The notes: a model not told the origin generated them from the letters alone. A stretch of DNA of 64,000 nucleotides from an uncultured Anaeroplasmatales bacterium (GCA_964634685.1 CAZWLD010000004.1:12430-76429); one strand, 5' to 3'; positions 3,454-56,414 are shown, counted from the first letter of the stretch. Translations and numbers: made by a program.

Positions 3454-3654
3454 TTATTGGGGGATCCAATGGGACATTTCTTTATTCTAAGAGCAATACT
3501 CATTGGAGAGATTCTAGGATAAATCATAGGTCCGATATGTAATTTTGAGTTACAACTTATGTCAATTATAAAGATGATGGTTAAGAATTTAATGGCATTA
3601 TAAAAGTGTATGATTATCTTGGTTCAACTGTTTTTAAATGAGTAGGTATTATTT

Positions 3655-4196: not shown

Positions 4197-5501
4197 ATGA
4201 TTAAGGTTGACGTAATTTCTGGCTTTTTAGGAGCTGGAAAAACAACATTAATTAAAAAATTATTTGAATCATCTTTAAAGGATGAAAAGGTAGTATTAAT
4301 TGAAAATGAATTTGGTGAAATTGGAATTGATGGTTCCTTTTTAAAGGATGCAGGAATTGACATTAAGGAAATTAATTCTGGTTGTATTTGTTGTTCTTTG
4401 GTCGGAGATTTTGCAGCTTCAATTAAAGAGGTTATTGCAAAATTTAATCCTGACCGCATTATTATTGAGCCATCTGGTGTCGGAAAGCTATCTGATATTG
4501 TTAATGCCATTGAAAATGTCGATGCCAATTTAGCATTGAATATTCTTGCGACGGTTGTGGATGGAACAAAAGCCAAGATTTATATGAAGAATTTTGGTGA
4601 GTTTTTCAACAATCAGGTTGAAACAGCTAATACCATTATTGTAAGTAAGACTGATAAAATGCAAGAGGATAAAATATTAACTGTTGTCGATCAGCTTAAG
4701 GAAAAGAATGAGCATGCCTTAATTATCACAACTGCAATTAATCTTTTAGATAGTAATAAGCTTTTAGAAACATTAGAAAAATCAGTTTCTTTACGTCAAG
4801 AGCTCTATGAGCAAATGATGGAAGAGCATCATCATCATGATGATGACGAATGTTGTTGTGACCATCATCATCACGACGATGATGAAGAATGTTGTTGTGG
4901 ACACCATCATGATCACGAGCATCATCACCATGACGATGAAGATGAATGTTGTTGTGGACACCATCATGATCACGATGAGGACGAAAATGAGTGCTGTTGC
5001 GGACATCATCATCACGACGATGATGAAGAATGCTGTTGTGGACACCATCATGATCACGAGCATCATCACGACGATGAAGAAGAATGTTGTTGTGGGCATC
5101 ATCATCACGATGAACACCACCATGATGACGAATGTTGTTGCGGACACCATCATCACGACGACGATGATGACGAATGCTGTTGTGGCCATCATCATGATCA
5201 CGAGCATCATCACCATGCTGATGAGGTATTTGTTAGTTGGGGCAAGGAAACACCACTTAGCTTTACGCGCGAACAATTAGAAAAATTCTTAAATGAATTG
5301 GCTAACAATGAGGAAGTTGGTATGGTTCTTCGTTCAAAGGGAATTCTTAAGGCTTCTGACAATGATTCTTGGTATTATTTTGATTTCGTTGCTGGTGATT
5401 ATGATATTCGCTTAGGCGAACCTGATGTTACAGGTCGAGTTTGTGTTATTGGCTCTAAATTAGATATAAAGAGAATTGAACATTTGTTTAGTGAAAGGTA
5501 A
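4197..5501 (+). CDS. COG0523 (CobW/YjiA/ZigA-type) G3E GTPase metallochaperone with a giant His/Asp/Cys-rich insert
   Basis: Walker A GFLGAGKTT, the family-defining CxCC motif (GCICCS), an SKTD specificity motif and a CobW_C-like tail. A 130-aa HHHH-DDD-E-CCC-G array sits between the domains. Confidence 0.9.
   Translation: MIKVDVISGFLGAGKTTLIKKLFESSLKDEKVVLIENEFGEIGIDGSFLKDAGIDIKEINSGCICCSLVGDFAASIKEVIAKFNPDRIIIEPSGVGKLSDIVNAIENVDANLALNILATVVDGTKAKIYMKNFGEFFNNQVETANTIIVSKTDKMQEDKILTVVDQLKEKNEHALIITTAINLLDSNKLLETLEKSVSLRQELYEQMMEEHHHHDDDECCCDHHHHDDDEECCCGHHHDHEHHHHDDEDECCCGHHHDHDEDENECCCGHHHHDDDEECCCGHHHDHEHHHDDEEECCCGHHHHDEHHHDDECCCGHHHHDDDDDECCCGHHHDHEHHHHADEVFVSWGKETPLSFTREQLEKFLNELANNEEVGMVLRSKGILKASDNDSWYYFDFVAGDYDIRLGEPDVTGRVCVIGSKLDIKRIEHLFSER
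4827..5216 (+). repeat. coding tandem array with eight CCC triplets embedded in His/Asp/Glu runs
   Basis: Eight TG(T/C)TG(T/C)TG(T/C) triplets, each flanked by CAT/CAC and GAT/GAC/GAA runs. The unit length is variable, roughly 39-48 nt. Confidence 0.9.
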
Positions 5502-42644: not shown

Positions 42645-44303
42645 ATGAAGCTATCACCACTTCAAAAAGCAAGATACCAATACAATCCTAAATTACCTGG
42701 AATGTTGAGAAATGGTATTGCTAGTATTTGTGTTAAGGAAGGAAATGAAACAGAGAGCGTTGCTGATCAAGAAAAAATCAAAGCTTTATTCCCTAATACA
42801 TATGGTAAAAAAGAAATTACATTTGAAAAAGGCATAAACACTTCAGTTGCAAAAAAACAAGTAGTAGGTGTTATTTTGTCAGGTGGTCAAGCCCCAGGAG
42901 GACACAATGTTGTTTGTGGACTTTACGATGCTTTAAAAGCCACTAATAAAGATAATGTTTTATTTGGATTTAAAAATGGTCCTGCTGGATTATTAGAAGA
43001 CAATTATTTAGTATTTGATGATGAATACATCGATCAATATCGTAATACTGGTGGATTTGATATTATCGGTTCTGGTCGTACAAAGCTTGAAACAAAGGAG
43101 CAATTTGCGGTTGCGGCTGAGGTTTGTAAAAAACATGGAATTACAGCTATCGTCATCATTGGTGGCGATGATTCCAACACTAATGCCGCTGTTTTAGCTG
43201 AATATTTTGCAGCTAACAACACAGGCGTTCAAGTTATTGGTTGTCCAAAAACAATTGATGGTGACTTAAAGAACGATGACATTGAATGCTCATTTGGTTT
43301 TGATACAGCTACTAAAACATATAGTGAAGTTATTGGAAATATTGAAAGAGATGCTAACTCAGCTAAAAAATATTGGCATTTTGTTAAGGTAATGGGACGT
43401 TCTGCATCACATGTTGCCTTAGAATGTGCATTACAAACTCAACCAAATATTTGCTTAATTTCCGAAGAGGTAGAGGCAAAGAAAATGTCTTTATCACAAA
43501 TCGCTGATTATATTGCGGATTCAGTCGAAAAAAGAGCAGCTAATGGAATGAATTTCGGTGTTGCGATTATTCCTGAGGGTGTTGTTGAATTTGTTCCTGA
43601 GTTCAAGGTATTAATTCAAGAAATCAATGAATTATTAGCTGGAGCTAAAGCCGAAGCCTTCAATGCTTTACCAACATGGGCTGAAAAATATGCCTTTATT
43701 GAAAAAGGATTAACTAAAGAATCAATGGCTGTTTTTGCGATTTTACCACAAACAATCCAACAACAATTATTCTTAGAAAGAGATCCTCACGGAAATGTTC
43801 AAGTTTCTTTAATTGAATCAGAAAAGCTATTCTCAGCTTTAGTTAAGGATAAATTAGATCAAAGAAAGAAAAACGGAACATATAATGGTAAATTTAATGC
43901 CCTACATCATTTCTTTGGTTACGAAGGAAGATGTGCGTTCCCATCAAATTTTGATGCTGACTATTGCTATTCATTAGGATACAATGCCTTTATGTTAATT
44001 CAATACGGATATAATGGATATTTATCAAAGGTTTCTAATTTATCTAAGCCAGCTGAGGAATGGGTTGCCGGCGGAATGCCAATCACAAAGATGATGAATA
44101 TGGAGCGTCGTCATGGTGAGGATAAACCAGTTATTCGTAAGGCTTTAGTTGATTTAAATGGTAAGCCATTCAAATTCTTTGAGGCTAATCGTGATACTTG
44201 GGCTGTCGAAACAGCATATACATATCCAGGCGCAATCCAATATTATGGACCATCTGAGGTTTGTGATTTAACTACTAGAACCTTAGCATTAGAAAAAGAA
44301 TAA
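42645..44303 (+). CDS. pfp: diphosphate--fructose-6-phosphate 1-phosphotransferase (long-form PPi-PFK)
   Basis: PFK motifs [16 protein letters not shown] and MGR in a 552-aa long-form architecture. Confidence 0.9.
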
Positions 44304-44318
44304 GCTAATCTAATGTTT

Positions 44319-44347
44319 AAAAAAGGCTTCAATGAAGCCTTTTTTTT
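44319..44347 (+). terminator. rho-independent terminator
   Basis: AGGCTTC-AAT-GAAGCCT followed by T8. Confidence 0.85.
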
Positions 44348-44415
44348 ACAATTAATTAACAAATATTAAATGCGTTTTTTTTATTGCTTTGGATATTTGT
44401 ATTATGGATGTAGTT

Positions 44416-44650
44416 ATGGAGTATTTATTAATGATTGTTGGCTTATTATTAGGTGGCATTTTTATTCCTCGACAATTTAAACAACAGATTTAAAGGTTGT
44501 TTCTGATGATTTAAATTCTGGAACCTTTAATGCTCTTAAGCATTGTGGAATTAAAATCGGAATTATCTGTTTTACTTTAGTTTTTTTGAAGGGCTTTGTT
44601 CCGGTATTTTTCGCATCTCTTTTTTTAAAGCCTGATAATATTTGTTTTTC
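44416..44650 (+). pseudogene. degraded plsY-like (glycerol-3-phosphate acyltransferase) remnant
   Basis: MEYLLMIVGLLLGG... stops after 25 codons. In a shifted frame, ...DDLNSGTFNALKHCGIKIGIICFTLVFLKGFVPVFFA parallels the PlsY GSGNxGATN...KG..PV region, but it is degenerate and ends early. Confidence 0.4.
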
Positions 44651-44727
44651 TTTGATGAGAATATCAAATAACCATTTATTAGAAAAGAAAGGATTAGAAT
44701 ATCGAACCTCTAATCTTTTTTTGTTTG

Positions 44728-44756
44728 TTGAAAAGAGAAAAAAAATAAGATATAAT
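44728..44756 (+). promoter_or_regulatory. candidate promoter of the sensor operon
   Basis: TTGAAA, 17 nt, then TATAAT, located 27 nt upstream of ATG 44783. Confidence 0.4.
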
Positions 44757-44782
44757 TGAGACAAGAGATGGGAGGGACAAAT

Positions 44783-46438
44783 ATGCGAAATGAAGTCAAA
44801 AAAAATATAGTATATATTGGCTGCTTTGTTGTTTTTTTGATAGCTGGTTTTTTTCAAGGTATTGATACTTATTTGCCCTATCCATATGATAGCTTTTTAA
44901 AAGTATCATCAAACCTTTTGTTTTTTTCGCTTTTAATTATTTGGACTCTTTCAATTAAAAATAGAATCATTCAAAAATCAACGAGAATGTCTCTTTTATT
45001 CATTGCCTGCTGTTTATTTTTTTGGATGATTCTTCGCTTTTATAAATATTACCTTTATTTAGGGGGACCTTTAATAGAGCGAATAATATGGTACCTATAC
45101 TATTTCCCTCAGCTTTTCGTTCCTCCAACGATGATTCTAGTTTCTTTGGGAATTGAAAGGAAAAATAATCAACCCTTAAAAAAATATTGGTATTTGCTTT
45201 ACCTTCCTGCCTTTGTTTTGTTTTCCTTTATCATCACCAATGAATTCCATCAATTAGCTTTTTCGATCTATCCAAAGACAGAATATACTTATTCATATAA
45301 GCATGAAATCATTTATTATTTAGCAATTGTTTGGATTTGCCTTACTATACTTTTAAGTATCATTGTTTTTACTGTTAAATCTTCCTTATCAACCGCAAGA
45401 AAAAAGGCTTGGATTCCAGTTTTTACAATCGTTTTTGCCTTTGTGTTCATCTTTATTAATTTTCAAATCGGCCATTTTTTTTATAATGATCCAGAATTGA
45501 TATCTTTCTTCTGTATTTTAATTATTGAAAGCTGTATCTACATTGGCTTGATTCCATCAAATGATAATTATGCTAATTATTTTAGGATTTCTAAAGCCTC
45601 AGCTATGATTGCGGATAATGATAATGAGATTGTCTATTTATCAAATAATTCGATTGATATTTCGAAAGAACAAATGGCCTCCGCAATTATCGATCCTCTT
45701 TATCTTGATGAAAATACGATATTATCCTCAAATAGAATTAATGGTGGTAATGTTTTTTATGTTGAGGATATCACAGAAATTAATGAATTAAATTCAGAAA
45801 TGAAACGAATTAATGAAAAGCTTGAGATGGAGAATTCATTAATCAAGGATGCTAATAAATTAAAAGAAAAAGAATTGCGAATTAATGAGCAAAATAAAAT
45901 ATATGATTCGGTTTCGGAATCAATCCATAACGAATTAAATATCGTTAATGATATTCTTAAGCAAACCTCGGCCCATAATGATGATTTTGAAATGAGAATA
46001 CGTTTGTCTTGCCTTTATATAGCATACATTAAAAGACTCAGTAATTTGATTGTTTCTAATTATGATAATGATTTGGTTAATTCAAAGGAATTAGAATATG
46101 CTTTAAAGGAGTCAGTTGATTATTTATCATTATGTGGCGTTGATTGTTCATTGTTAGCCTTTTGTGAGGATTTGGTTCCTATCCGAGTTATTAAAATGCT
46201 ATATTTGTTTTTCCAAACCTGTATTATTAAAGCTCTCCCTTCCTTATGCGCTATTATTGTAAGCTTGACAATTAATAAAAAAATCGTTTTTCGAATAACA
46301 TGTGATAATGCTAAAGCTTCTATAGATTCCTCGTTTTGTCAAGATGAGTTAGATAAGCTTGGTGGAAGTATTACGATTGAACAGCAGGATGATACGACAT
46401 ATTCAACCTTGTCTTTTGATTTGGGTGGTGATAAATGA
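44783..46438 (+). CDS. 8-TM sensor protein with a degenerate histidine-kinase C-terminus (probable pseudokinase)
   Basis: RBS GGGAGGG. About eight hydrophobic helices, a coiled-coil and a DHp-like SIHNELN motif. The CA-like tail (LGGSITIEQQDDTTYSTLSF) lacks recognisable N and G1/G2 boxes. Confidence 0.7.
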   Translation: MRNEVKKNIVYIGCFVVFLIAGFFQGIDTYLPYPYDSFLKVSSNLLFFSLLIIWTLSIKNRIIQKSTRMSLLFIACCLFFWMILRFYKYYLYLGGPLIERIIWYLYYFPQLFVPPTMILVSLGIERKNNQPLKKYWYLLYLPAFVLFSFIITNEFHQLAFSIYPKTEYTYSYKHEIIYYLAIVWICLTILLSIIVFTVKSSLSTARKKAWIPVFTIVFAFVFIFINFQIGHFFYNDPELISFFCILIIESCIYIGLIPSNDNYANYFRISKASAMIADNDNEIVYLSNNSIDISKEQMASAIIDPLYLDENTILSSNRINGGNVFYVEDITEINELNSEMKRINEKLEMENSLIKDANKLKEKELRINEQNKIYDSVSESIHNELNIVNDILKQTSAHNDDFEMRIRLSCLYIAYIKRLSNLIVSNYDNDLVNSKELEYALKESVDYLSLCGVDCSLLAFCEDLVPIRVIKMLYLFFQTCIIKALPSLCAIIVSLTINKKIVFRITCDNAKASIDSSFCQDELDKLGGSITIEQQDDTTYSTLSFDLGGDK

Positions 46439-47721
46439 TGAAGTTTTACGAGACGCCAATTGTTCTTCAGGAATACATATTAATTTTTTATACTATCTCC
46501 GCTTTATTAATGGTTATTAACTTAATCAATCAGGTTATATTAAAGTGGAATCTAAAAACGATTGCTTTGTTTGTTGTTTTAATCGTAAATGATGCTTTTT
46601 TGACAATGCTTTTGATTGATGGAATGTATTATTATAATTATGGTTATGATGTAGATTTGATCTTGATGAAGGTCATTAGCACTCCATTATGGCTTATTAT
46701 CATTCTTTTAGTGCTTTATTTAGCCTGCGGAATTGCTTGTAGCTATTTTCTTCATCGCTTTCGCAAACGTAAACTATCGCCGATGTCGATTAAAGAAAGT
46801 ATTGATCATTTGCCGGTTGGTATTTGTATTTATTCTAATGAGGGTAAACCTCGATTAATCAATAGCATAATTAATGAGCTATGCTTACAAACTACCGGTA
46901 GGGCGTTATTAAATGCGAATACCTTCTGGAGTCTTTTAGAGGAAGGTAAGGTTTTAGAAGGCTGTCTTGTTATAAAGGATGGAATTAATCCGATTATTCG
47001 TTTTACAAATGATAAAACATATTCCTTTTCAAGGTATGAGCACAATATTGATGGAATGATGTTCTATGAAATTGTGGCGGTTGATGTTACAATGGAATCA
47101 GAATTAAATTCGAAATTGAAAGAGAAGAATTATGAGCTTTCACAAATCAATACAAGCTTAAAAAAATATGGTGAAAATATATTGGAATACACTCACGAAA
47201 AAGAAAAACTAGCGACGAAAATTCGTATTCATGATGATATGGGAAAGCTTCTGTTATTTACGAAAAAGCAGCTATCTGAGCCTTTAAATGAAAATCAAAA
47301 AAATGATTTATTGAACACTTGGAAGGATACGCTTTTGGAATTTGGAAAAATAAAGGACGATACGGAAAAAACCTTTGATGAATTAAAAATAGCTGCCCAA
47401 TCCTTGGGAGTTGAAATCATTTTTAGTGGAATAAACCCTGATTATGATTTGGTTAGAAGAATTGTTATTAGCGCGGGAATTGAATGTATGACTAATACGG
47501 TCGCCCACGGTGAAGGCAATAAATTATTCATTGATATACAAAAGGATGATAATTGGATTATTAGGTTGTGGAATAACGGAAAGAATCCAGATGGAGATAT
47601 TAAGGAAGGAACAGGGCTTTCCTCTTTACGAAATATTGTGGAAAGCGAAGGAGGAATTATGAATTTTCTGTATGAACCTCAGTTTACGTTAAAAATAATC
47701 CTTACAGGGGGGAAATTATGA
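46435..47721 (+). CDS. membrane histidine kinase, HisKA_3 type
   Basis: ATGA overlap with the upstream gene. H-box RIHDDMGKLL, N-box-like CMTNTVAHG, and G2 GTGLSSLRNIVESEGG. Confidence 0.8.
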   Translation: MMKFYETPIVLQEYILIFYTISALLMVINLINQVILKWNLKTIALFVVLIVNDAFLTMLLIDGMYYYNYGYDVDLILMKVISTPLWLIIILLVLYLACGIACSYFLHRFRKRKLSPMSIKESIDHLPVGICIYSNEGKPRLINSIINELCLQTTGRALLNANTFWSLLEEGKVLEGCLVIKDGINPIIRFTNDKTYSFSRYEHNIDGMMFYEIVAVDVTMESELNSKLKEKNYELSQINTSLKKYGENILEYTHEKEKLATKIRIHDDMGKLLLFTKKQLSEPLNENQKNDLLNTWKDTLLEFGKIKDDTEKTFDELKIAAQSLGVEIIFSGINPDYDLVRRIVISAGIECMTNTVAHGEGNKLFIDIQKDDNWIIRLWNNGKNPDGDIKEGTGLSSLRNIVESEGGIMNFLYEPQFTLKIILTGGKL

Positions 47722-48371
47722 AGGATGGAAAATACTTAGTAATGGTTGTGGAAGACCAGGAAATGCCACGTCAATTATTTGAACAATTCATTAAACAATC
47801 GGATTGCTTTTTGTTGGCAATTTCAATTGCCAATGCTGAATATGCGGAAATATATTGTATGAATAATGCAATTGATTTGATTTTAATGGATGTTTTTACA
47901 AAGGAAGGACAAAATGGTCTTCAAGCTGCCGAAAAAATCAAACGAAAATATCCACATATTAAAATAATCATCGTTACATCAATGCCTGAATGCTCCTACA
48001 TCGATCGAGCAAAGGCCATTGGGGTCGAGGGATTCTGGTATAAGGATACCAGCAAGGATACAATTCTTTCCTTGATGAATCGCGTAATAAAGGGTGAGAA
48101 TGTCTATCCCGAAATGTCACAACCCGTTATGATTGGTTTAGTAAATAGCACCGAATTCACGAAAAGAGAAATTGAAATTTTACGAGAAATGACGGGAGGC
48201 TATAGTAATCAGGAGATTGGGGAAAAGCTTGGTATATCGGTTAATGTTGTCAGAAATCACATTTCCAATATGCTTGAGAAAACTGGTTTTCGCTCACGAA
48301 CACAGCTAGCGGTAAAAGCAAGGTCCACGGGTTTGGTTATTTTAGATAAGTCCGAGGATGATATCGATTAG
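47718..48371 (+). CDS. NarL/LuxR-family response regulator
   Basis: Receiver domain (VVEDQ, LILMDV, IIIVTS, YK) plus a LuxR HTH (TKREIEILREMTGGYSNQEIGEKLGISVNVVRNHISNM). Confidence 0.9.
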   Translation: MKDGKYLVMVVEDQEMPRQLFEQFIKQSDCFLLAISIANAEYAEIYCMNNAIDLILMDVFTKEGQNGLQAAEKIKRKYPHIKIIIVTSMPECSYIDRAKAIGVEGFWYKDTSKDTILSLMNRVIKGENVYPEMSQPVMIGLVNSTEFTKREIEILREMTGGYSNQEIGEKLGISVNVVRNHISNMLEKTGFRSRTQLAVKARSTGLVILDKSEDDID

Positions 48372-48391
48372 GTTATACACTTGATATGGAG

Positions 48392-48416
48392 AGTCACATT
48401 TTTGTGACTTTTTTTG
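48392..48416 (+). terminator. rho-independent terminator after the regulator gene
   Basis: AGTCACA-TTTT-TGTGACT followed by T7. Confidence 0.85.
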
Positions 48417-48420
48417 TTAA

Positions 48421-48465
48421 GGGTTACAAATGTAACTACTCATCCTCATAAATTGATGATAGAAT
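48421..48465 (+). promoter_or_regulatory. operator-promoter copy A: GGGTTACAAATGTAACT palindrome plus an extended -10 TGATAGAAT
   Basis: GTTACA-AA-TGTAAC at 48423..48436 and TAGAAT at 48460..48465. The same 17-mer and the same spacing recur at 52436..52480. Confidence 0.6.
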
Positions 48466-48510
48466 ATGGCGATATCATAGATATAGAAATAATTAAGGAG
48501 GTATGTAGAT

Positions 48511-51500
48511 ATGAATAGATTTACGAAAAGCATAGGAAAAATCTTTTTCTTACTATGCTTATTATTAACCGTATCTTTAGCGGTAAATAGTAATCCTGGC
48601 AAAGTGTATGCTGCTGATGCCGAAGGTATTAGCGTTACTCGTGACAATACGGATGGAACTAAGACGGGATCAGGATGGACCTGGACAAAAACAGGTAGTA
48701 ATCAGTCAGGAAAATTATCTTTAAACGGCTATAACGGTGGAAGAATTGCAATTGGAGGTCCGGTTGGAGATACTGAAATTGAACTTATAGGAGACAACAC
48801 GGTTACTGTTACCGAGCCATATATTGATGGTGGTAATATCTGCTATGGGATTATCGTTTGTAATGCTCAAAACCTCACATTTAGTGGAAGTGGAACCCTC
48901 ACTATAAATGTTATGGCAACTTCAATGGTGAAGGTTTGTGGCGTTTATATTTATAAGGATAACGCTGTATCTTTAGGAAATCTTGTTTTTAGCGAAGGTA
49001 CAGTAAGCATTAATGTTACGTGCTTGAATTTGTCAGATGGAGGCGGAGCATACGGCATCAATTCATATGAAATGACAACCGGTGGATCCGTTACTGTTTC
49101 TGAAAATGCAACCCTTAAGATTGACTTGAAGTCTGATTATTATGGCAATGCATATGGAGTTTATTCATACGGAGATATCATATTAAATGGAACAGTTAGT
49201 TCGAAAATGGAGTATACAGGATCTAGTAATCCGAATAATTATTGGAGAGATTTTTCTTCTAATAGTTCACAAAATGTGATTGGTCTAAATGCAATTATTG
49301 ATTCGTATAATCCTGGTACAAGTGGAACATTATTAGGTTATTTTGCACTTGAAGCTAATAGCAATACAAAGATTGAAACTTGGACTTTAGTAGGATCAGA
49401 AGAAAAGTATTTTGAAAATGATAATTGCTTTGTCCATATTTCTGAAGTGAATGTTTACAGTGGATATGCAAGGTATTCATATCGTAAAATAGAGACTCCA
49501 CTTACCTTTGAGGATAAGGATGAATATGATATTCCAGAGATTGTATATGGTAATGAGGCATATTCAGCTCCTTTTGTCGCAACTGGTGGTAGTGGAGAAT
49601 ATACCTATACAATATATAGTGTTGCAAATGGTAATCAAACAGGTCTTAGAATTGTTGATAACAAATTATGCTCATCTGGTAGAGGAGTAAGTGAAGCTAC
49701 AACCTGTACGATTCAGGTAATGGATAAGGGTGGATACACAAAATACATCATTGTCAATATTGGTGCGGTTGTTGCGCCAACCTATAGTGCTACTGTTGAT
49801 GATATCGATTTTGGTACCGTTAAACCTGGATATGAATCAGTTACTGCCGTTCCTATTAATATTCATAATACAGGTACTGGAAATATAAAAATTATTTCTA
49901 ATAGTTCAGTATATCTCAGTAGTCAAAGTTATTTTATTTTAACATATGATAGTGTGCCATCATTAATTAATGGTGGTGAAACAAACACAAGCTGGAGTAT
50001 CAAACCTAAGGATGGCTTATCAGTTGGTACATACACCGTGACGATAACATTTAGAGGTACACCAGAATTACCAGGATTTTCAGGTGAAATCCAAGTTTCC
50101 GCAAAAGTTACTTTTGTTGTAAGTGACCATAATTTTGATACATCAAAATGGGAACATGATGATGAAAAGCACTGGAATCCATGTAAGGATGCTTTATGTA
50201 CTGCTCATGGTAATGAAGCTTTACACGATAAAGATGGTGAATTAACAGGTTATTATCCTGCAACTGAAGAAACAAATGGATATACTGGTGATAGGCATTG
50301 CTCAGTGTGCGGAGCTATATCTGAATATGGAGAAGTTATTTTTGCTAACAAGATTAATAGTGTTGAATTAGGATTTTCATCAGGAACTGATGAAATGATT
50401 GTTAGAGGAAGTAGTTATAATTTTAAGGCAAAAGTTATTGGCACAGGTTCTTTTGATAACACGATTAAGTGGATTGTAGAAGGCGGTTCGACAGGTACAA
50501 CTATATCGTCTGATGGTGTATTAACAGTAGCAGCAAACGAGGTTAATTCAACCATTACGATAAAAGCAGTTGCCAATGGCGATAATGAAGTCTTTGCCAC
50601 AAAAGTCCTTGATGTTTATTCAGAAGTAACTATTGTTAATGGAACTGAAACAACAGATTATTATTTAGTAGGTCAAACTATTGATCTTGCGGCTATAGAG
50701 GCAAGCGAAGGATATCATTTTAAAAACTGGACTAAAGATGGCTATGGATCCTTTACTAACGATAAAGCTAAAAATGCTCAGTTTATTGTCGCAAATTCCA
50801 ATGTAACTATTACATCAAATTATGAATTACATTATACAAATGATACAGTATGGACACATAATGCAACAAGTCATTACCATTTCTGTATATGTGGAGAAAA
50901 AATTGATATTGAAGATCATGTTTATGATAATGATGTAGATACAACTTGTAATGTTTGCGGATATGAAAGACCAGCCCATACTCATACAGCTGATAGTGAA
51001 TGGCATTATGATAATGATAATCATTGGCATATTTGTACAATTAATGGTTGTACCGAAAAGCTTAATGTTGAGGAGCATTCCTTTGGCAATTGGACGGTTA
51101 CAGTAGAGCCACAGGTTGGTGTTGCTGGTGAAAAGAAACGTGAATGTACAATTTGTGGATATAGTGAAACCGCTCCTGTTGATGCCCTTATCGAACAAAT
51201 CACTGTAACAGTTAATGGAGGAAAAGTTAATGGTGGCGCAAGTGTAACAGTTGACAAGAATGGTTCCGTTACAGTTGTTGCGGATTCAGCTCCAGAAGGA
51301 AAAGAATTTAAAGGCTGGAGTAAGGATGGTGGAGAAACAATCCTAAGTGAGGATTCAAGCTATACCTTCAACGCAACCGAAAATGTTACACTTACAGCGA
51401 TTTATAAGGATATAAAATCAAAAGGACTTTCTGGTGGTGCCATTGCTGGAATTGTAATTGGCAGTGTTGTTGTTATCGGAATCGGAGGATTTTCTATTTT

Positions 51501-51558
51501 TTGGTTTGGTATTAAGAAAAAGAAGTTCACAGACCTTCTAGCAGTTTTTAAAAAGTAA
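48511..51558 (+). CDS. 1015-aa surface protein: signal peptide, beta-helix-like repeats, Ig-like/Listeria-Bacteroides-type repeats, three His/Cys modules, C-terminal TM anchor
   Basis: The signal sequence ends in VYA/AD. Repeats follow a G(V/I)Y...(L/V)T(F/V)S..GT(L/V).I pattern. G.HFKNW and FKGW repeat signatures are present. His/Cys modules lie at 50128..50313, 50830..50964 and 50977..51162. The C-terminal hydrophobic helix is followed by KKKK, with no LPXTG motif. Confidence 0.85.
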   Translation: MNRFTKSIGKIFFLLCLLLTVSLAVNSNPGKVYAADAEGISVTRDNTDGTKTGSGWTWTKTGSNQSGKLSLNGYNGGRIAIGGPVGDTEIELIGDNTVTVTEPYIDGGNICYGIIVCNAQNLTFSGSGTLTINVMATSMVKVCGVYIYKDNAVSLGNLVFSEGTVSINVTCLNLSDGGGAYGINSYEMTTGGSVTVSENATLKIDLKSDYYGNAYGVYSYGDIILNGTVSSKMEYTGSSNPNNYWRDFSSNSSQNVIGLNAIIDSYNPGTSGTLLGYFALEANSNTKIETWTLVGSEEKYFENDNCFVHISEVNVYSGYARYSYRKIETPLTFEDKDEYDIPEIVYGNEAYSAPFVATGGSGEYTYTIYSVANGNQTGLRIVDNKLCSSGRGVSEATTCTIQVMDKGGYTKYIIVNIGAVVAPTYSATVDDIDFGTVKPGYESVTAVPINIHNTGTGNIKIISNSSVYLSSQSYFILTYDSVPSLINGGETNTSWSIKPKDGLSVGTYTVTITFRGTPELPGFSGEIQVSAKVTFVVSDHNFDTSKWEHDDEKHWNPCKDALCTAHGNEALHDKDGELTGYYPATEETNGYTGDRHCSVCGAISEYGEVIFANKINSVELGFSSGTDEMIVRGSSYNFKAKVIGTGSFDNTIKWIVEGGSTGTTISSDGVLTVAANEVNSTITIKAVANGDNEVFATKVLDVYSEVTIVNGTETTDYYLVGQTIDLAAIEASEGYHFKNWTKDGYGSFTNDKAKNAQFIVANSNVTITSNYELHYTNDTVWTHNATSHYHFCICGEKIDIEDHVYDNDVDTTCNVCGYERPAHTHTADSEWHYDNDNHWHICTINGCTEKLNVEEHSFGNWTVTVEPQVGVAGEKKRECTICGYSETAPVDALIEQITVTVNGGKVNGGASVTVDKNGSVTVVADSAPEGKEFKGWSKDGGETILSEDSSYTFNATENVTLTAIYKDIKSKGLSGGAIAGIVIGSVVVIGIGGFSIFWFGIKKKKFTDLLAVFKK

Positions 51559-51573
51559 AATCGATTTGAAAAA

Positions 51574-51609
51574 GGATCTATGAGGTATATATCTCGTAGG
51601 TCCTTTTTG
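51574..51609 (+). terminator. rho-independent terminator
   Basis: AGGATCTATGAG / CTCGTAGGTCCT stem (two G-U pairs) followed by TTTTT. Confidence 0.55.
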
Positions 51610-51699
51610 GAGGGTTGATAAAGCATGGTAAAGGATATATCTTAATTTAAACTCACAAAAGAAACGGCAAAAGAATATTTTTTTCTAAATGATTGTAAG

Positions 51700-52155
51700 A
51701 TGTCTTCAATTGATCGTAATGGATTATCTAATTCGACTAAGTTTCGAAATTATTGTTTTTCTAATTCGACGTTGTCTGAATGGACAAATGAGTGGATGAA
51801 ACCAAAAATTGTGGAAGGGATAATCAATAAAGATTATGAACTTTTATATTCTTTTATCGAAGATTATAGCGATAGAATTGATGTTGATAATTCATTGCTG
51901 TTAATTGAATTATATAAAAGTGTACAACAAGATTTTAAATTCTTGGAAAGAAAAGAATTAGATGTTTTATATCACTGTGAAGAACCTGTATTTTTGGATA
52001 GGAAATTTGAGTATGGATTGATTTATTTGGCTCATAAAAATAAATTGCCTAATGAGCAAAATATCCTTTTTGAGCGTTTTTTAGTAGTAAATTCGTCAAT
52101 AAATTTTTATGATGATTTTTTTATATCTAAAATGAAAAGAGAATTAATGAACTAA
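51700..52155 (+). CDS. hypothetical protein
   Basis: 151-aa ORF with no convincing RBS and no recognised motif. Confidence 0.4.
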   Translation: MSSIDRNGLSNSTKFRNYCFSNSTLSEWTNEWMKPKIVEGIINKDYELLYSFIEDYSDRIDVDNSLLLIELYKSVQQDFKFLERKELDVLYHCEEPVFLDRKFEYGLIYLAHKNKLPNEQNILFERFLVVNSSINFYDDFFISKMKRELMN

Positions 52156-52435
52156 TTGTAATAAAGAGTCCCCAACAAGGAGGATTCTTTTTTTATGGTG
52201 TTAAATAATTTGAAATTATTATCGACATCTTATTCAATAGAAAGAAGTTTAATCAAAATGTTTTATGGAATTAAAAAGGGTAGAACCTTTTTTATGCATA
52301 CAATCCCTTCGTATTTGGTAATCAGTTGTTTATGTCAATTCCATTATACAAAGGAAGCTTTTTGCTGAAAGATTTACTCCGATTATTTTATTATTTATAT
52401 ATTTTTTGATATAAACTTTAATAAAATGAAGGAAG

Positions 52436-52480
52436 GGGTTACAAATGTAACTCCTCTCTTTTTTTTATTGATGATAAAAT
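52436..52480 (+). promoter_or_regulatory. operator-promoter copy B: GGGTTACAAATGTAACT palindrome plus an extended -10 TGATAAAAT
   Basis: GTTACA-AA-TGTAAC at 52438..52451 and TAAAAT at 52475..52480. The distance from palindrome centre to the -10 is identical to copy A. Confidence 0.6.
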
Positions 52481-52512
52481 AAGGTGAAATCTAAAGAAAG
52501 GAGAAAATTGTA

Positions 52513-52893
52513 ATGAAAAGAGTGATATTATCAATAAGCAATTCCTTAGTTAATGATGCTGTTAAAAATGCATTAAAGCAAGTGGGATATTTAGTTCAAT
52601 CAGTTCCTTCATATAAAACAGATGACGTTGTCAATTCCTGTGATGCTTTTTTTGCTAACCTTTTATTGATGGATGTTAATCGCGTTGGTTCAGATATCAA
52701 TGTTCGTCTTGAAACCATTGATAAGGTAAAAAAACAAAATCCGAAAATTAAAATTGCTTTGTTGTGTGATAATGTTTCAGATCCAGAAATAGCTTATAAG
52801 ATTAAACAAGCAAAAGAAGAAAAAATCATTGATTCATTTTTTTATGAATCGGTTAGTATGGATTATATGATTGATATCCTCGATTCATTGTAA
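52513..52893 (+). CDS. stand-alone receiver-like (pseudo-receiver) protein
   Basis: CheY-like length and pattern, with LLLMDV at the phospho-Asp position. However, the N-terminal acidic pair is replaced (ILSISNS), the T/S position is Cys (ALLCD), and no conserved Lys lies in FFYES. Confidence 0.6.
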   Translation: MKRVILSISNSLVNDAVKNALKQVGYLVQSVPSYKTDDVVNSCDAFFANLLLMDVNRVGSDINVRLETIDKVKKQNPKIKIALLCDNVSDPEIAYKIKQAKEEKIIDSFFYESVSMDYMIDILDSL

Positions 52894-52912
52894 GAAAGTT
52901 ATTTTATAAAAA

Positions 52913-53405
52913 ATGTTAAATTAGTTTTTGCTTTGACTTTAGTTATGATGATTTGTTCGATTATCCTTGTTGGTTGTGGTGAAAAGCAAGCCATTGCAAA
53001 AAAAAAATAGCTGCCGATGCTACTGCTCATGACCATTCCTATAATCTTTGGGAAGCTGATGAGGAAAATCATTATCAAGTATGTAGTGAAGGAAATTGTG
53101 AAGAAGAAGTTAATAGGGGACCACATAATTTTGATAATGGTACGGTTTTAGCCGTTGCGGATAGCGGAAAAAATGGCTTGAAGGTCTATACCTGTACTAC
53201 CTGTGGATATAAATCATATGTTTATTTTCCAATTGAAAAGACAGAGACTATTCAAAAAACCGCAACAATTACTTTTGAAGCGAATGGAGGTACTCCTGTA
53301 GCTCCAATAACTGCTAATGTTAGTTCGAAAATTGAAGAGTCTACTACAACTCTTCTACCCCTTGGATCAGCATCAAGCGGAATATTTAAGTCTTACCAAA
53401 AATAA
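52913..53405 (+). pseudogene. small lipoprotein with one His/Cys module and a Listeria-Bacteroides-type repeat, disrupted at an A10 tract (and possibly at its start)
   Basis: Lipoprotein signal KLVFALTLVMMICSIILVGC-GEKQAIAKKK ends at TAG 53008. In the next frame, AADATAHDHSYNLWEADEENHYQVCSEGNCEE...YTCTTCGY...TITFEANGGTPV runs to 53405. The ORF track shows only 53178..53405. Confidence 0.55.
52998..53007 (+). repeat. poly(A)10 homopolymer at the frame break of the small lipoprotein gene
   Basis: Counted directly. One extra A joins the signal-peptide frame to the downstream frame. Confidence 0.95.
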
Positions 53406-53423
53406 AAGGAAAGGAAGAAGATT

Positions 53424-55736
53424 ATGCAAAAGAAATCAATTTTAAGCTTAGCCATTATGGCAATGTTAATCGTTGGATTAACCTTAACTGGTTGTGGCAA
53501 ATCGCACAAATATAACGAAAATTGGTCTTCTGATGCCGAAAATCATTGGCATGCTTGCGAAGATAAAAATTGCGATAAAAAGAAGGATGTTGCAACCCAT
53601 ACATTTGATGAAGGAGTAGTTACAGTTGAACCAGGTATTGGTACAAAGGGTGTAAAAACTTATACCTGTAGCGTATGTAATTACCAAAAAACGGAAGAGA
53701 TTCCAGCAATTGACCACACTCATGTGGCTGGAAGTACTTGGGAGAAAGATGCTACAAATCACTGGACTTTATGTACCTGTGGTGAAAAAATGGATGTGGC
53801 TGCCCATACATTTGATGAAGGAGTAGTTACAGTTGAACCAGGTATTGGTACAAAGGGTGTAAAAACTTATACCTGTAGCGTATGTAATTACCAAAAAACG
53901 GAAGAGATTCCAGCAATTGACCACACTCATGTGGCTGGAAGTACTTGGGAGAAAGATGCTACAAATCACTGGAATTTATGTGAATGCGGTGAAAAAATGA
54001 ATGTCGCAGTTCATATTTCTAGTGATTGGATTGTTGATAATGAACCAGATTATGGTGTTAAAGGTAACAGTCATAAGGAATGTACTGTTTGTGGATTTGT
54101 TCTTGAAGAAAAAGAGACTGATGCCCCTCCAGCTAAGGATGTAACCATTACTTATGATGTTGAATTAGATAAGACATATGATGGTACTCCGGTAGCCTTT
54201 AATATCGCTGATGTAGTTGTTTCTAATGGCGCAACTCCAGTAGCTGAATGGTATAAGGTTGATGGTGAAAGCAACGCTACGAAGATTGAAAATGTACCTG
54301 TTGATGCTGGAACTTATAAGTTATTACTAAAGACTTTAGGAACTGCTGAATGGAAGGAAGCAACCCTTTCAGTTGATGTTCTTATTTTCACAAAATTTGG
54401 TGAAATTGAAGTTACAAAGGTTTTAGATAAAGTTTATGATGGCGAAGCTGTTTCTTTAAGTGATTCGGATATTACTGGAAATAGTGATGATCTAAGCTAC
54501 ACTATCACTTGGTATAATTATACAACTGATCATCCTGATTATGTGCTTGCTGAAGCACCAAAGGATGCTGGAAATTATACAGTGAAGGTTGAAATGGCTG
54601 AAACAAATAATGTTAGTAAAGCTTCATTTGTTGTTAACTTTGATATTTCAAGACGTACATTGTATTATGGTCAAACATATGCATACGGAAATCCAAATTA
54701 TTTAAACCCAAATCTTACTTGGGAAATCGGTGATACTTATTCTAATAATGGCTTTAAATCTACAAATAAAGTAGAAGGTGATTATGTTGCAATCAATTTC
54801 TGCTTTGATAATATTTATGTTGGTTCAAATTTAAGTGTATTTAAAATTGACGAAGCAGCTTGTATTGCTCATAATAGTAAAGCTCATTTAAATTATGTCT
54901 TAGATACAGAGGTTAAACCAGTGATTGTTCCGAAGAAATTAACTAATCTTAATTTAGTAACGGAATATAACGGCGAAAAAGGAAGACCTAATTTTGTATT
55001 AACAGCTGCCGATGGAATATTTGAGGATGATGATGTAAGAGTAGTAATCTCTGGTAATGCTCTAAGCTGGGATGCTTTGACCGAATTAACATTATCCTTA
55101 GCTGACAACATTGTTGGTGATGAAACTATTTCCTTTGTTGAGGAAGGTGAGTACGCAAACTATGTCTTGACTCTTACTGGTGACTATGTTGGAACACTTA
55201 CAATTAATCAAAAGGTTTTAACTAATCTTGATTTACAAACATATTATGATGAAACAGCCGGAAGAACAAATTTTGTTTTAACTGAAGCTGATGGAATTGT
55301 GGCTGGTGAGTCCGTTTTTGTAAATATTTCAGGAGATAATTCCAGTGATTGGGGAGAAGGAGATTCATATGTCTTGCGTTTAAAGGGAACTGTTCAAGGT
55401 GAAGAAACTATTACTTTAGTTGAAAATGAAAATTCATCAAACTATATTTTAGTAGAAAAAGATGGTAGCGTTGGAACAATTACAATTAATCATTCTGTTA
55501 TTCTAAAGAATATTACCTTCAAGGCTTCTCAAGGAATATTTTCTAATCGATTTGGATTTAAAACTTGGATATTTTCGCTAACTAATGAGACAGGACTTGA
55601 AGCTGGTGATACTGTAAATATTAGTGTTAAAGTATTTGATAATAGCGGTAAAATTAGCTTAACAAAAGAGAATACTTCATTTAATAATAAGAAATATTTT
55701 ATTGGTAGTGGTTGCTATCTTGATTTAGATAACTAA
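53424..55736 (+). CDS. 770-aa surface lipoprotein with three tandem His/Cys modules and Ig-like repeats
   Basis: Lipobox LTGC. Modules lie at 53505..54095. Repeated segments of about 90 aa follow (KV/TYDG..V ... AG.Y pattern). Confidence 0.85.
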   Translation: MQKKSILSLAIMAMLIVGLTLTGCGKSHKYNENWSSDAENHWHACEDKNCDKKKDVATHTFDEGVVTVEPGIGTKGVKTYTCSVCNYQKTEEIPAIDHTHVAGSTWEKDATNHWTLCTCGEKMDVAAHTFDEGVVTVEPGIGTKGVKTYTCSVCNYQKTEEIPAIDHTHVAGSTWEKDATNHWNLCECGEKMNVAVHISSDWIVDNEPDYGVKGNSHKECTVCGFVLEEKETDAPPAKDVTITYDVELDKTYDGTPVAFNIADVVVSNGATPVAEWYKVDGESNATKIENVPVDAGTYKLLLKTLGTAEWKEATLSVDVLIFTKFGEIEVTKVLDKVYDGEAVSLSDSDITGNSDDLSYTITWYNYTTDHPDYVLAEAPKDAGNYTVKVEMAETNNVSKASFVVNFDISRRTLYYGQTYAYGNPNYLNPNLTWEIGDTYSNNGFKSTNKVEGDYVAINFCFDNIYVGSNLSVFKIDEAACIAHNSKAHLNYVLDTEVKPVIVPKKLTNLNLVTEYNGEKGRPNFVLTAADGIFEDDDVRVVISGNALSWDALTELTLSLADNIVGDETISFVEEGEYANYVLTLTGDYVGTLTINQKVLTNLDLQTYYDETAGRTNFVLTEADGIVAGESVFVNISGDNSSDWGEGDSYVLRLKGTVQGEETITLVENENSSNYILVEKDGSVGTITINHSVILKNITFKASQGIFSNRFGFKTWIFSLTNETGLEAGDTVNISVKVFDNSGKISLTKENTSFNNKKYFIGSGCYLDLDN
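53596..53973 (+). repeat. tandem duplication with a 207-nt period and a 171-nt perfectly identical core
   Basis: 53596..53766 is identical to 53803..53973, and the flanks diverge. The repeat duplicates one His/Cys module exactly. Confidence 0.92.
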
Positions 55737-55850
55737 AAATGGGGATTAATTATATAGTTTTAGTTAGTACTTCAATGCTAAATAGTTAATAAGATTGTTA
55801 ATAAGTGATGGTGGATTTCTGCCATCACTTTACTTCTGTATAAAAAAAGT

Positions 55851-55882
55851 TTTCCCAATATGAAAATGGGAAAGCTTTTTTT
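55851..55882 (+). terminator. rho-independent terminator (a second hairpin lies at 55805..55829)
   Basis: TTTCCCA / TGGGAAA stem followed by T7. Upstream is a GTGATGG / CCATCAC hairpin. Confidence 0.7.
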
Positions 55883-55945
55883 ATATAGCTATGTTCTTTT
55901 TTATAAAAATAATGTATAATTAGGAAGAGAAATTTAGGTGAGAAA

Positions 55946-56410
55946 ATGATTAGAGAAGCGAATAAAAATGATATACCAGAAATAATTAATTTATTAAAGC
56001 AGGTTAATTTAATTCACCATCAAGGCCGACCAGATATTTTTAACATTGGAACGAAATATACTAAAGAAGAATTAGAAGAAATTATCAATGATAATAAAAG
56101 GCCGATTTATGTTTATGACGATAATCAAATATTAGGCTATGCCTTTTGTATAATTAAAGAAACCAAAGATGATAATATCTTAGCTAGTAGAACGGAATTA
56201 TATATAGATGATTTATGTGTTTTAGAAGGGAATAGAGGCAATCATATCGGTTCCTCTTTATTTTCCTATGTCAAAGAAAGAGCAATTGATTTAAAATGTG
56301 ATGCGATTACCTTAAATGTTTGGAGTTTTAATGAAGGGGCAATGGCCTTTTATAAAAAAATGGGGATGAAGCCCTTAAAAACAGTTATGGAATATCCGAT
56401 AAAGAAGTGA
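55946..56410 (+). CDS. GNAT family N-acetyltransferase
   Basis: NRGNHIGSSLF acetyl-CoA loop and AMAFYKKMGM motif. RBS AGGTGAG. Confidence 0.8.
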   Translation: MIREANKNDIPEIINLLKQVNLIHHQGRPDIFNIGTKYTKEELEEIINDNKRPIYVYDDNQILGYAFCIIKETKDDNILASRTELYIDDLCVLEGNRGNHIGSSLFSYVKERAIDLKCDAITLNVWSFNEGAMAFYKKMGMKPLKTVMEYPIKK

Positions 56411-56414
56411 TTTT

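What the first reader, a model, noticed from the sequence alone, without database searches (positions are those of the whole stretch)
48421..52480. Identical 17-nt palindromic operator at identical spacing in two promoters downstream of the LuxR regulator: a ready-made mini-regulon
GGGTTACAAATGTAACT occurs at 48421..48437 and again at 52436..52452. In both cases the palindrome centre lies 30.5 nt upstream of the first base of an extended -10 (TGATAGAAT and TGATAAAAT) within a shared ATTGATGATA(G/A)AATA block. That places the dyad near -42, the class II activator position that substitutes for a -35 element. Neither promoter has a good -35. The first copy starts 5 nt after the terminator of the regulator gene. 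Copy A drives the 1015-aa surface protein. Copy B drives the receiver-like gene, the small lipoprotein and probably the 770-aa lipoprotein. A 6-2-6 inverted repeat fits a dimeric LuxR/NarL-type HTH.
Basis: partly seen in the sequence, partly recalled or inferred. Interest (0 to 1): 0.75.

Follow-up and report, generated by a model that had tools for sequence, protein, structure and literature searches.

The report
Conserved response-regulator operator in duplicated promoters
Two promoters downstream of a two-component regulator gene share a palindromic DNA site that recurs beside the same regulator, at a fixed distance from the -10 box, in dozens of uncultured gut bacteria; it is very probably that regulator's binding site, switching on surface-protein genes, which makes it real and undescribed but an ordinary kind of switch.

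Summary
GGGTTACAAATGTAACT occurs exactly at 48421-48437 and 52436-52452, each inside a 56-nt colinear block.

Identity alone is weak evidence, because five unrelated 17-mers also repeat in this AT-rich window. The comparative evidence is strong:
- 68 of 91 loci carrying the same gene module (7TM kinase-like protein, kinase, LuxR-type regulator) have a related palindrome beside it.
- The best -10 lies 20 or 21 nt after the palindrome in 58 of the 66 sites with a good -10, and the -35 position is poor throughout.
- The palindrome sequence changes together with the regulator's recognition helix, nearly one class to one class.

Corrections:
- Copy B is the ancestral promoter. It drives a pseudo-receiver paralogue of the regulator.
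- Copy A is a duplicated promoter cassette. Close strains carry different cargo genes behind it, and one probably has three copies.
- The "small lipoprotein" is a frameshifted gene.

This is a new member of a known kind, of moderate interest. Binding and transcription starts remain untested.

The parts
44728..44756 (+). Sigma-70-like promoter (TTGAAA-17-TATAAT) of the sensor/regulator operon. No operator lies upstream, so there is no evident autoregulation.
   Evidence: It is an 11/12 consensus match. No palindrome of the family occurs in 44280-44800.
44756..46438 (+). A 7TM membrane protein with a histidine-kinase-like C-terminus that lacks conserved H, N and G boxes. It is probably a pseudokinase or sensor partner.
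   Evidence: Pfam HisKA_7TM match. Conservation profile across 64 homologues.
46435..47721 (+). Histidine kinase with a conserved H-box (riHD..G), N-box (hEClTN.v.HA.G) and G-box (EGgGLssLR).
   Evidence: Conservation profile across 77 homologues. It has no Pfam or NCBIfam hit.
47718..48371 (+). NarL/FixJ-type response regulator (REC + GerE HTH). Its recognition helix is SVNVVRNHISNMLEK.
   Evidence: Pfam. E12, D13, D58, T87 and K109 are invariant in the family. The nearest solved homologues are VraR, DesR and NarL.
48392..48415 (+). Intrinsic terminator of the regulator operon: stem AGTCAC/GTGACT followed by T6.
   Evidence: Sequence. Fold energy -25.3 kcal/mol, z-score -5.9.
48421..48440 (+). 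Operator copy A. The 14-nt core GTTACAAATGTAAC is at 48423-48436.
48457..48465 (+). Extended -10 of promoter A (TGATAGAAT). It starts 20 nt after the palindrome.
48511..51558 (+). A 1015-aa surface protein (signal peptide, Flg_new/Flg_new_2 repeats, C-terminal TM anchor). It is the cargo of promoter A and is followed by its own terminator at about 51569-51608.
   Evidence: Pfam. Translation. Terminator fold -25.3 kcal/mol.
51700..52155 (+). A 151-aa protein of unknown function with its own terminator (about 52166-52195). It varies between strains and does not belong to either operator-driven unit.
   Evidence: No family hit. Terminator fold. Absent in L143.
52436..52455 (+). Operator copy B. 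The core is at 52438-52451. Here it extends to a 9-2-9 repeat (GGGGTTACA/TGTAACTCC) and is followed by T8, so it also looks like a terminator.
52472..52480 (+). Extended -10 of promoter B (TGATAAAAT). It starts 20 nt after the palindrome.
52513..52893 (+). A 126-aa pseudo-receiver, paralogous to the regulator's REC domain. It lacks the acidic pocket (N10 in its place), the Thr (Cys in its place) and the Lys (Glu/Ala in its place). It is the ancestral first gene behind the operator.
   Evidence: BLASTP E=2e-6. hhalign 94.8%, E=5e-8. Family alignment. Synteny.
52913..53405 (+). Frameshifted Flg_new lipoprotein gene. The start codon, the lipobox signal peptide (LVGC) and the body are in three different frames. 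One break is at an A10 run (52998-53007).
   Evidence: Three-frame translation. The intact 328-aa and 334-aa genes occupy this position in strain L143.
53424..55736 (+). A 770-aa lipoprotein (MBG domain, internal 207-nt tandem repeat). It is the last gene of the promoter-B unit, with a terminator at about 55843-55885.

Best explanation
The palindrome is the cognate DNA site of the response regulator encoded at 47718-48371.

Proposed mechanism:
- Once phosphorylated by the kinase at 46435-47721, a regulator dimer binds the 6-2-6 repeat (extended 9-2-9 in copy B).
- The repeat is centred about 42.5 nt upstream of the inferred start. It overlaps the position of the missing -35 element.
- From there the dimer recruits RNA polymerase to an extended -10 promoter. 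This is class-II-like activation, as for NarL at yeaR.

The two promoters:
- Promoter B is the ancestral one. It drives a pseudo-receiver paralogue of the regulator, probably a feedback element, and then lipoprotein/surface-protein genes.
- Promoter A is a duplicated copy of the same promoter cassette. It places a 1015-aa surface protein under the same control.

Shown here: the sequence anatomy, conservation, spacing, helix/operator co-variation and cassette duplication. Inferred: binding, activation rather than repression, the transcription starts and the role of the pseudo-receiver.
For: 1. Exact repeat and 56-nt colinear block.
2. An orthologous regulator that is 70% identical has GGGGTTACATTTGTAACTCCC followed, 20 nt later, by TGATAAAAT, in front of the pseudo-receiver gene.
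3. 68 of 91 loci with the module carry a related palindrome. Of the 66 sites with a good -10, the best -10 lies at 20 nt in 40 and at 21 nt in 18. Mean -35 match is 2.2/6.
4. An unbiased spacing histogram peaks only at 20/21: 31 and 20 sites against about 10 background per spacing.
5. Recognition-helix classes map to operator classes:
   - NVVRNHI[ST] with GTTACA
   - GV[VI]KNHVA with GTGCC[AG]
   - KRVRNHVA with G[GT]GTCA
   - NA[IV]KKHIS with GTACCC
   - ATVK[TS]HIL with TAGCCA
6. The site keeps its orientation and spacing when the target gene is divergent from the regulator operon (L009-L014, L064/75/83, L056/58/73).
7. The regulator has all phospho-acceptor residues, and the kinase has conserved catalytic boxes.
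8. The high-G+C relatives have weak -10 boxes (TGCTATGCT, TGGTACGCT) and no -35, which implies dependence on an activator.
9. The NarL 7-2-7 site at yeaR is centred at -43.5 and activates (PMC10853779).
10. In strains 97.5% identical to the window, the palindrome and -10 are invariant in all six cassette copies, while the spacer, flanks and cargo vary.
Against: - No binding or expression data exist, and the transcription starts are unmapped.
- Extended -10 promoters in low-G+C Firmicutes can fire without a -35. A protein bound at -42 could therefore repress instead.
- The two window copies are paralogous and show mosaic exchange between strains. Their mutual identity reflects common descent or gene conversion as well as selection.
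- Helix/operator co-variation is confounded by phylogeny: classes largely follow clades.
- 23 of the 91 loci showed no recognisable site. Some of these are on short contigs.
- Copy B also fits a terminator pattern.
Confidence: 0.77

Rival explanations
1. The regulator binds the palindrome but acts as a repressor. It would occlude RNA polymerase at extended -10 promoters that do not need a -35.
For: The low-G+C promoters have near-consensus extended -10 boxes, TGATAAAAT and TGATAGAAT. These could be active on their own. The site would lie within the polymerase footprint.
Against: The spacing is restricted to 20-21 nt across distant clades, which is typical of face-of-helix contacts by activators. 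Relatives with weak -10 boxes and no -35 would be silent without an activator. NarL at the same position activates.
Confidence: 0.13
2. The palindrome is the site of a different transcription factor encoded elsewhere, for example a Crp/Fnr-type or other dimeric regulator. Its position beside the response regulator would then be incidental.
For: GTTACA..TGTAAC-type palindromes followed by -10 boxes occur in unrelated environmental contigs. Such palindromes are therefore used by other factors too.
Against: The site follows the module through rearrangements, whether the target is downstream or divergent. Its sequence class changes with the recognition helix of the adjacent regulator. No other DNA-binding gene is conserved in the neighbourhood.
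Confidence: 0.05
3. The element acts as an RNA hairpin: an intrinsic terminator or attenuator of the upstream transcripts, or a structured RNA.
For: Copy B scores as a terminator, with a 9-bp stem followed by T8 and a fold energy of -15.5 kcal/mol, z-score -4.4. Symmetric changes in both arms across species would also preserve a hairpin.
Against: Copy A has no T-run, folds weakly on its own (-5.2 kcal/mol, z-score -0.9) and lies after a separate strong terminator. Most orthologous sites lack a T-run. The conserved feature is the distance to a downstream -10, and the element lies upstream of that -10. The 151-aa gene upstream of copy B has its own terminator. There is no Rfam match.
Confidence: 0.03
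4. The repeat is a functionless trace of a segmental duplication, or a chance repeat in AT-rich DNA.
For: Five unrelated exact 17-mer repeats occur in the window. The two copies are paralogous and exchange sequence between strains.
Against: The element is conserved, with fixed spacing, in dozens of species whose flanking sequence is unalignable. Within the 56-nt block, the invariant parts are exactly the palindrome and the -10.
Confidence: 0.02

Closest known systems
NarL 7-2-7 site at the E. coli yeaR promoter (NarX/NarL)
   Same: Both involve a NarL/FixJ-family regulator and an inverted repeat of 6-7-bp half-sites separated by 2 bp. In both, a single dimer site is centred just upstream of or over a weak -35: -43.5 in yeaR (PMC10853779) and about -42.5 or -43.5 here. 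The outcome in yeaR is activation.
   Different: The half-site sequence differs: TACCCAT-type for NarL, GTTACA here and GTGCCA in most relatives. The promoters here are extended -10 promoters of Bacillota. The regulator scores far below the NarL equivalog cut-off (72.8 against 250 bits). The signal is unknown, and the system has an extra 7TM pseudokinase and a pseudo-receiver.
VraSR / LiaSR-type systems of Firmicutes (closest solved homologues: VraR 7VE6/4GVP, DesR 4LDZ)
   Same: These have the same regulator architecture and the best sequence matches among solved structures (E about 1e-22). The kinase has a HisKA_3-like H-box. From general knowledge, their targets lie beside the regulator operon.
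   Different: There is no LiaF/VraT-type accessory protein. The targets are surface or lipoproteins with Flg_new/MBG repeats, not cell-envelope stress genes. No equivalog assignment was reached.
EvgA box of E. coli (18-bp inverted repeat TTCYTACA-N2-TGTARGAA; recalled from memory, not tested here)
   Same: Both are bound by a NarL-family regulator. The core TTACA-NN-TGTAA is the same as in the window's operator.
   Different: EvgA is only a weak match to the regulator (E about 1e-9 to 1e-11). The flanks and the promoter context differ. The resemblance is a lead only.
FixL-FixJ-FixT and CckA-Osp negative feedback by receiver-like inhibitors
   Same: In both, a single-domain receiver-like protein is induced by the pathway it belongs to (PMC7078487 and PMC9430884). 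Here the pseudo-receiver gene is the conserved first gene behind the operator.
   Different: No homology beyond the receiver fold was shown. An inhibitory role is pure inference here. The protein lacks the four-Cys Fe-S motif of Caulobacter FixT.

Membership tests
NarL/FixJ (LuxR-type HTH) response regulator with cognate operator | The regulator has a receiver domain plus a GerE/LuxR-type HTH. | tested here: met
   Pfam Response_reg matches at 2.4e-15 and GerE at 6.2e-16.
NarL/FixJ (LuxR-type HTH) response regulator with cognate operator | Conserved phospho-acceptor Asp and catalytic residues (acidic pair, Asp, Thr/Ser, Lys). | tested here: met
   E12, D13, D58, T87 and K109 are invariant in 14 homologues.
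NarL/FixJ (LuxR-type HTH) response regulator with cognate operator | An adjacent histidine kinase with an H-box and an ATP-binding N/G box. | tested here: met
   The motifs are conserved in 77 homologues of the 428-aa protein. No Pfam or NCBIfam model matches it.
NarL/FixJ (LuxR-type HTH) response regulator with cognate operator | The DNA site is an inverted repeat of 6-7-bp half-sites with a 2-bp spacer (7-2-7 geometry). | tested here: met
   GTTACA-AA-TGTAAC in the window. The same geometry holds in all operator classes.
NarL/FixJ (LuxR-type HTH) response regulator with cognate operator | Operator sequence co-varies with the recognition helix of the regulator. | tested here: met
   The mapping of helix classes to half-site classes is nearly one-to-one. 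It is confounded by phylogeny.
NarL/FixJ (LuxR-type HTH) response regulator with cognate operator | Physical binding of the phosphorylated regulator to the site. | not testable with these tools
   This needs EMSA, footprinting or DAP-seq.
Class II-type activator-dependent promoter | The activator site is centred near -41.5 to -43.5 and overlaps a weak or absent -35. | tested here: inconclusive
   The centre lies 30.5 nt (or 31.5 nt in relatives) before the -10 hexamer, and the -35 position matches TTGACA at 2-3/6. The start site is inferred, not mapped.
Class II-type activator-dependent promoter | Transcription depends on the activator. | not testable with these tools
   This needs reporter or transcript data.
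Rho-independent terminator | A G+C-rich hairpin immediately followed by a U-run. | tested here: not met
   Only copy B fits. Copy A and most orthologous sites have no T-run.
Known structured RNA (Rfam) | A match to a covariance model at or near the gathering score. | tested here: not met
   No relevant hit in 44000-56500 at E<=1.
Mobile-element terminal repeat or recombination site | Repeats flank a segment that encodes a transposase or recombinase. | tested here: not met
   The 4-kb segment between the copies encodes a surface protein and a 151-aa protein with no transposase or integrase domain. The repeats are direct copies of a promoter.

The most novel reading that the evidence does not exclude
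The operator plus -10 block may be a portable promoter cassette of a previously undescribed four-part signalling module. The module consists of a 7TM pseudokinase, a kinase, a NarL-type regulator and a regulator-induced pseudo-receiver that closes a feedback loop. It is conserved across uncultured gut Bacilli (RF39-like) and Christensenellales.

In this reading the cassette is copied and exchanged by recombination in front of swappable surface-protein genes. Strains of one species would then display different regulator-controlled surface repertoires. The family would also provide a natural specificity code for LuxR-type helices.
Probability: 0.3. Interest if true: 0.6.

Novelty: new member of a known kind. 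Interest (0 to 1): 0.42.

Why it matters
- It gives a concrete, testable cis-element and target set for a signalling module that is widespread in uncultured human-gut Bacillota: 154 relatives among species-representative genomes. None of its parts carries an annotation beyond "response regulator".
- The targets are large surface and lipoproteins with Listeria-Bacteroides (Flg_new) and MBG repeats. These are likely host- or particle-facing molecules.
- The natural series of matched recognition helices and half-sites could serve to derive or test specificity rules for LuxR-type HTH domains.
- The strain-level duplication of the promoter cassette shows how a small regulon grows.
- None of this changes current concepts of two-component regulation.

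Tried and rejected
- **Weaker sites in the window.** GTTACANNTGTAAC at up to 2 mismatches gave 10 extra hits. All those inspected are inside coding sequence or lack a -10. Two are copies of the internal repeat of the 770-aa gene. I judged them to be chance or coding bias.
- **Paralogue upstream region.** The region upstream of the 770-aa paralogue at 22829 has no palindrome.
- **Autoregulation.** No site lies upstream of the sensor operon. That operon has its own consensus promoter. A 26-nt resemblance to the B spacer at 44616-44641 has no palindrome in front of it.
- **Metagenome scan.** I scanned for GTTACAWWTGTAAC-N19-22-TGNTANAAT and got 44 hits. Only two belong to this system, both at the already known locus of the 70%-identical species. 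The rest are unrelated environmental sequences spread over all spacings. No new regulon members were found.
- **Window's own species.** It is not among the species-representative genomes, so a genome-wide regulon search was not possible.
- **Rfam.** Nothing relevant.
- **Literature.** Full-text search for six operator variants returned no paper. Searches for the module returned nothing specific.
- **L002 hybrid site.** I first read it as a 4-kb deletion. I rejected this because the cargo gene is still present there, so it is a mosaic spacer.
- **Copy B as terminator of the 151-aa gene.** Rejected, because that gene has its own terminator.


Full report
**1. Observation**

GGGTTACAAATGTAACT is present exactly at 48421-48437 and 52436-52452, and nowhere else in the window even at three mismatches. 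Its core GTTACA-AA-TGTAAC is a perfect 6-2-6 inverted repeat. In copy B the flanks extend it to 9-2-9 with one G/A asymmetry: GGGGTTACA and TGTAACTCC.

The two copies head a colinear 56-nt block that is 77% identical and 4015 nt apart. In this block only the palindrome, ATTGATGATA(G/A)AATA and a few following bases are shared.

The dyad centres lie 30.5 nt before the -10 hexamers TAGAAT and TAAAAT, and 27.5 nt before the TG. With a start 7 nt after the hexamer, the dyad is at -42.5.

The -35 positions read TACTCA and TCCTCT. Copy A begins 5 nt after the T-run of a strong terminator that ends the regulator operon.

A caution applies. This 32% G+C window holds five unrelated exact 17-mer repeats and 48 perfect 6-2-6 palindromes. 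The identity alone proves little.

**2. Gene context**

Upstream lie three genes:
- a 7TM protein with a kinase-like C-terminus that has lost the H, N and G boxes (44756-46438);
- a histidine kinase with these boxes conserved (46435-47721);
- a NarL/FixJ-type regulator with all phospho-acceptor residues (47718-48371).

This operon has its own near-consensus promoter and no operator.

Promoter A is followed by a 1015-aa Flg_new surface protein and a strong terminator. A 151-aa gene with its own terminator comes next.

Promoter B is followed by four features:
- a 126-aa protein;
- a frameshifted lipoprotein gene;
- a 770-aa MBG lipoprotein;
- a strong terminator.

The 126-aa protein is a paralogue of the regulator's receiver domain (BLASTP 2e-6; hhalign 94.8%). 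It has Asn for the acidic pair, Cys for Thr and Glu/Ala for Lys, and in some clades Glu for the acceptor Asp. It is therefore a pseudo-receiver.

**3. Comparative evidence**

The regulator has thousands of relatives. Those at 57-70% identity come from uncultured gut Bacilli and Clostridia. The record labels include RF39-like "Mollicutes", Coprobacillus sp. CAG:826, Clostridium sp. CAG:288, Candidatus Enteromonas and Christensenellales.

I collected 91 loci. Four findings follow.
- **Gene order.** The order 7TM protein, kinase, regulator is conserved. In about 45 loci the pseudo-receiver gene follows directly, then Flg_new/MBG proteins.
- **The site.** A palindrome of the same geometry lies beside the module in 68 loci. 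The best -10 lies 20 nt after it in 40 sites and 21 nt after it in 18, out of 66 sites with a good -10.
- **The control.** A search that did not assume the spacing counted G+C-containing palindromes followed by TGnTAnnnT at 12-30 nt. It peaks only at 20 and 21.
- **What varies.** The spacer sequence is not conserved, and the -35 position matches TTGACA at 2.2/6 on average.

The arrangement holds when the target gene is divergent from the sensor operon, and when two tandem lipoprotein genes each carry a site.

**4. Co-variation**

The half-site differs between clades and tracks the recognition helix:

| Recognition helix | Half-site | Where |
|---|---|---|
| NVVRNHI(S/T) | GTTACA | window species, the 70%-identical species, L015 |
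| GV(V/I)KNHVA | GTGCC(A/G) | about 20 species |
| KRVRNHVA | G(G/T)GTCA | several species |
| NRVRNHIV | GGTACA | one locus |
| NA(I/V)KKHIS | GTACCC | several species |
| ATVK(T/S)HIL | TAGCCA | Christensenellales |
| SSVKTHIL | TGGCCA | one locus matched the class pattern (L064); L075 and L083 share the helix |

The variable helix positions align with NarL K188, V189 and K192, which contact bases. That alignment is from my own knowledge of the NarL-DNA structures and was not tested here.

This pattern is what one expects if the adjacent regulator is the binder. Phylogeny confounds it, since classes largely follow clades.

**5. Mechanism**

The geometry is that of a NarL 7-2-7 site. At yeaR a single such site centred at -43.5 activates by a class-II-like mechanism (PMC10853779).

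Three observations favour activation (about 0.75 given binding):
- the strict 20-21-nt spacing;
- the absent -35;
- the weak -10 boxes of the high-G+C relatives.

Repression is the main rival.

The pseudo-receiver as first target suggests feedback of the FixT or Osp kind (PMC7078487 and PMC9430884). This is inference only.

**6. Origin of the two copies**

The ancestral layout is regulator, site, pseudo-receiver. Copy B is therefore ancestral in its downstream context, and copy A in its upstream context. A promoter duplication brought the 1015-aa gene under the same control.

Contigs that are 97.5% identical to the window add detail:
- The same promoter A sits in front of a different 896-aa Flg_new gene (L139, L141, L142).
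- Cassette copies lie before the 1015-aa gene and before the pseudo-receiver, with a longer shared upstream flank (L143).
- Two contigs from one sample (ERZ27303964) carry three distinct cassette copies between them, which suggests three copies in that strain if they belong to one genome.

The spacer occurs as two haplotypes that are mosaic between copies and strains. The palindrome and the -10 are invariant in all six copies.

**7. Rivals**

- **Terminator or RNA hairpin.** Only copy B has a T-run. Copy A folds weakly and follows a separate terminator. Rfam finds nothing.
- **Foreign factor.** Similar palindromes occur in unrelated metagenomes, but only this family follows the module and its helix.
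- **Chance or relic.** Excluded by the cross-species data.

**8. Regulon size**

The window has two sites. Most relatives show one site within 8-10 kb, and four lineages show two. A strict composite scan of metagenome contigs recovered only the known locus of the 70%-identical species. The regulon therefore appears small and local. The full genome of the window's species could not be searched.

**9. Verdict**

The element is an undescribed operator of a known kind: no paper contains the site and no curated family names the proteins. Interest is moderate.

Noticed in passing
window 52913-53405: A lipoprotein gene with a Flg_new repeat is broken into three frames. The ATG, the lipobox signal peptide and the body are out of frame. 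One break is at an A10 run (52998-53007) and the other is in a short A-run near the start. In strain L143 this position holds intact 328-aa and 334-aa genes. The cause could be a pseudogene, phase variation or an assembly error. An independent contig (L001) is identical, but it may come from the same sample.
   Followed up: partly
window 44756-46438, with homologues in 64 loci: The 7TM HisKA_7TM protein encoded first in the operon has no conserved His, N-box or G-box in its kinase-like C-terminus. It looks like a pseudokinase sensor paired with the true kinase encoded next.
   Followed up: partly
L139:10706-13482, L141 and L142 compared with window 48421-51558: In strains about 97.5% identical to the window, promoter A is unchanged up to just after the -10. 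The gene behind it is a different 896-aa Flg_new protein that shares only its C-terminal roughly 550 nt with the window's 1015-aa gene. L003 also diverges right after the ribosome-binding site. The surface-protein cargo is swapped between strains.
   Followed up: partly
L143:245-258 and 3536-3549, with L141 from the same sample: Promoter-cassette copies precede both the 1015-aa gene and the pseudo-receiver gene, and they share a longer upstream flank (AGATTTATTATTAAAAAGTATAAAG). L141 comes from the same sample (ERZ27303964) and carries a further copy next to the regulator gene. If the two contigs belong to one genome, that strain has three operator copies.
   Followed up: partly
window 51700-52155: A 151-aa protein with no family match and its own terminator sits between the two cassettes. 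It is present in L140 and absent in L143, so it is a strain-variable insertion of unknown function.
   Followed up: no
window 53571-53984: A 207-nt tandem duplication (94% identical) lies inside the 770-aa lipoprotein gene. It repeats a Cys-rich HxH...CxxC module that is also found in the 1015-aa protein.
   Followed up: no
window 4840-5220: A dense set of exact repeats of CATCATCA/GATGATGA-type codons suggests a His/Asp-rich repetitive coding region inside the 4197-5501 ORF.
   Followed up: no
L009:2341-2358, and the same position in L010-L013: A 16-bp palindrome TGTAACAAATGTTACA lies directly upstream of a cNMP-binding (Crp/Fnr-type) regulator gene. It is an inside-out relative of the window's operator and probably belongs to that other regulator.
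   Followed up: no
window 44616-44641: A 26-nt stretch upstream of the sensor operon resembles the spacer and -10 of promoter B (77%) and includes TGATAATAT. No palindrome precedes it. It may be a relic or chance.
   Followed up: no
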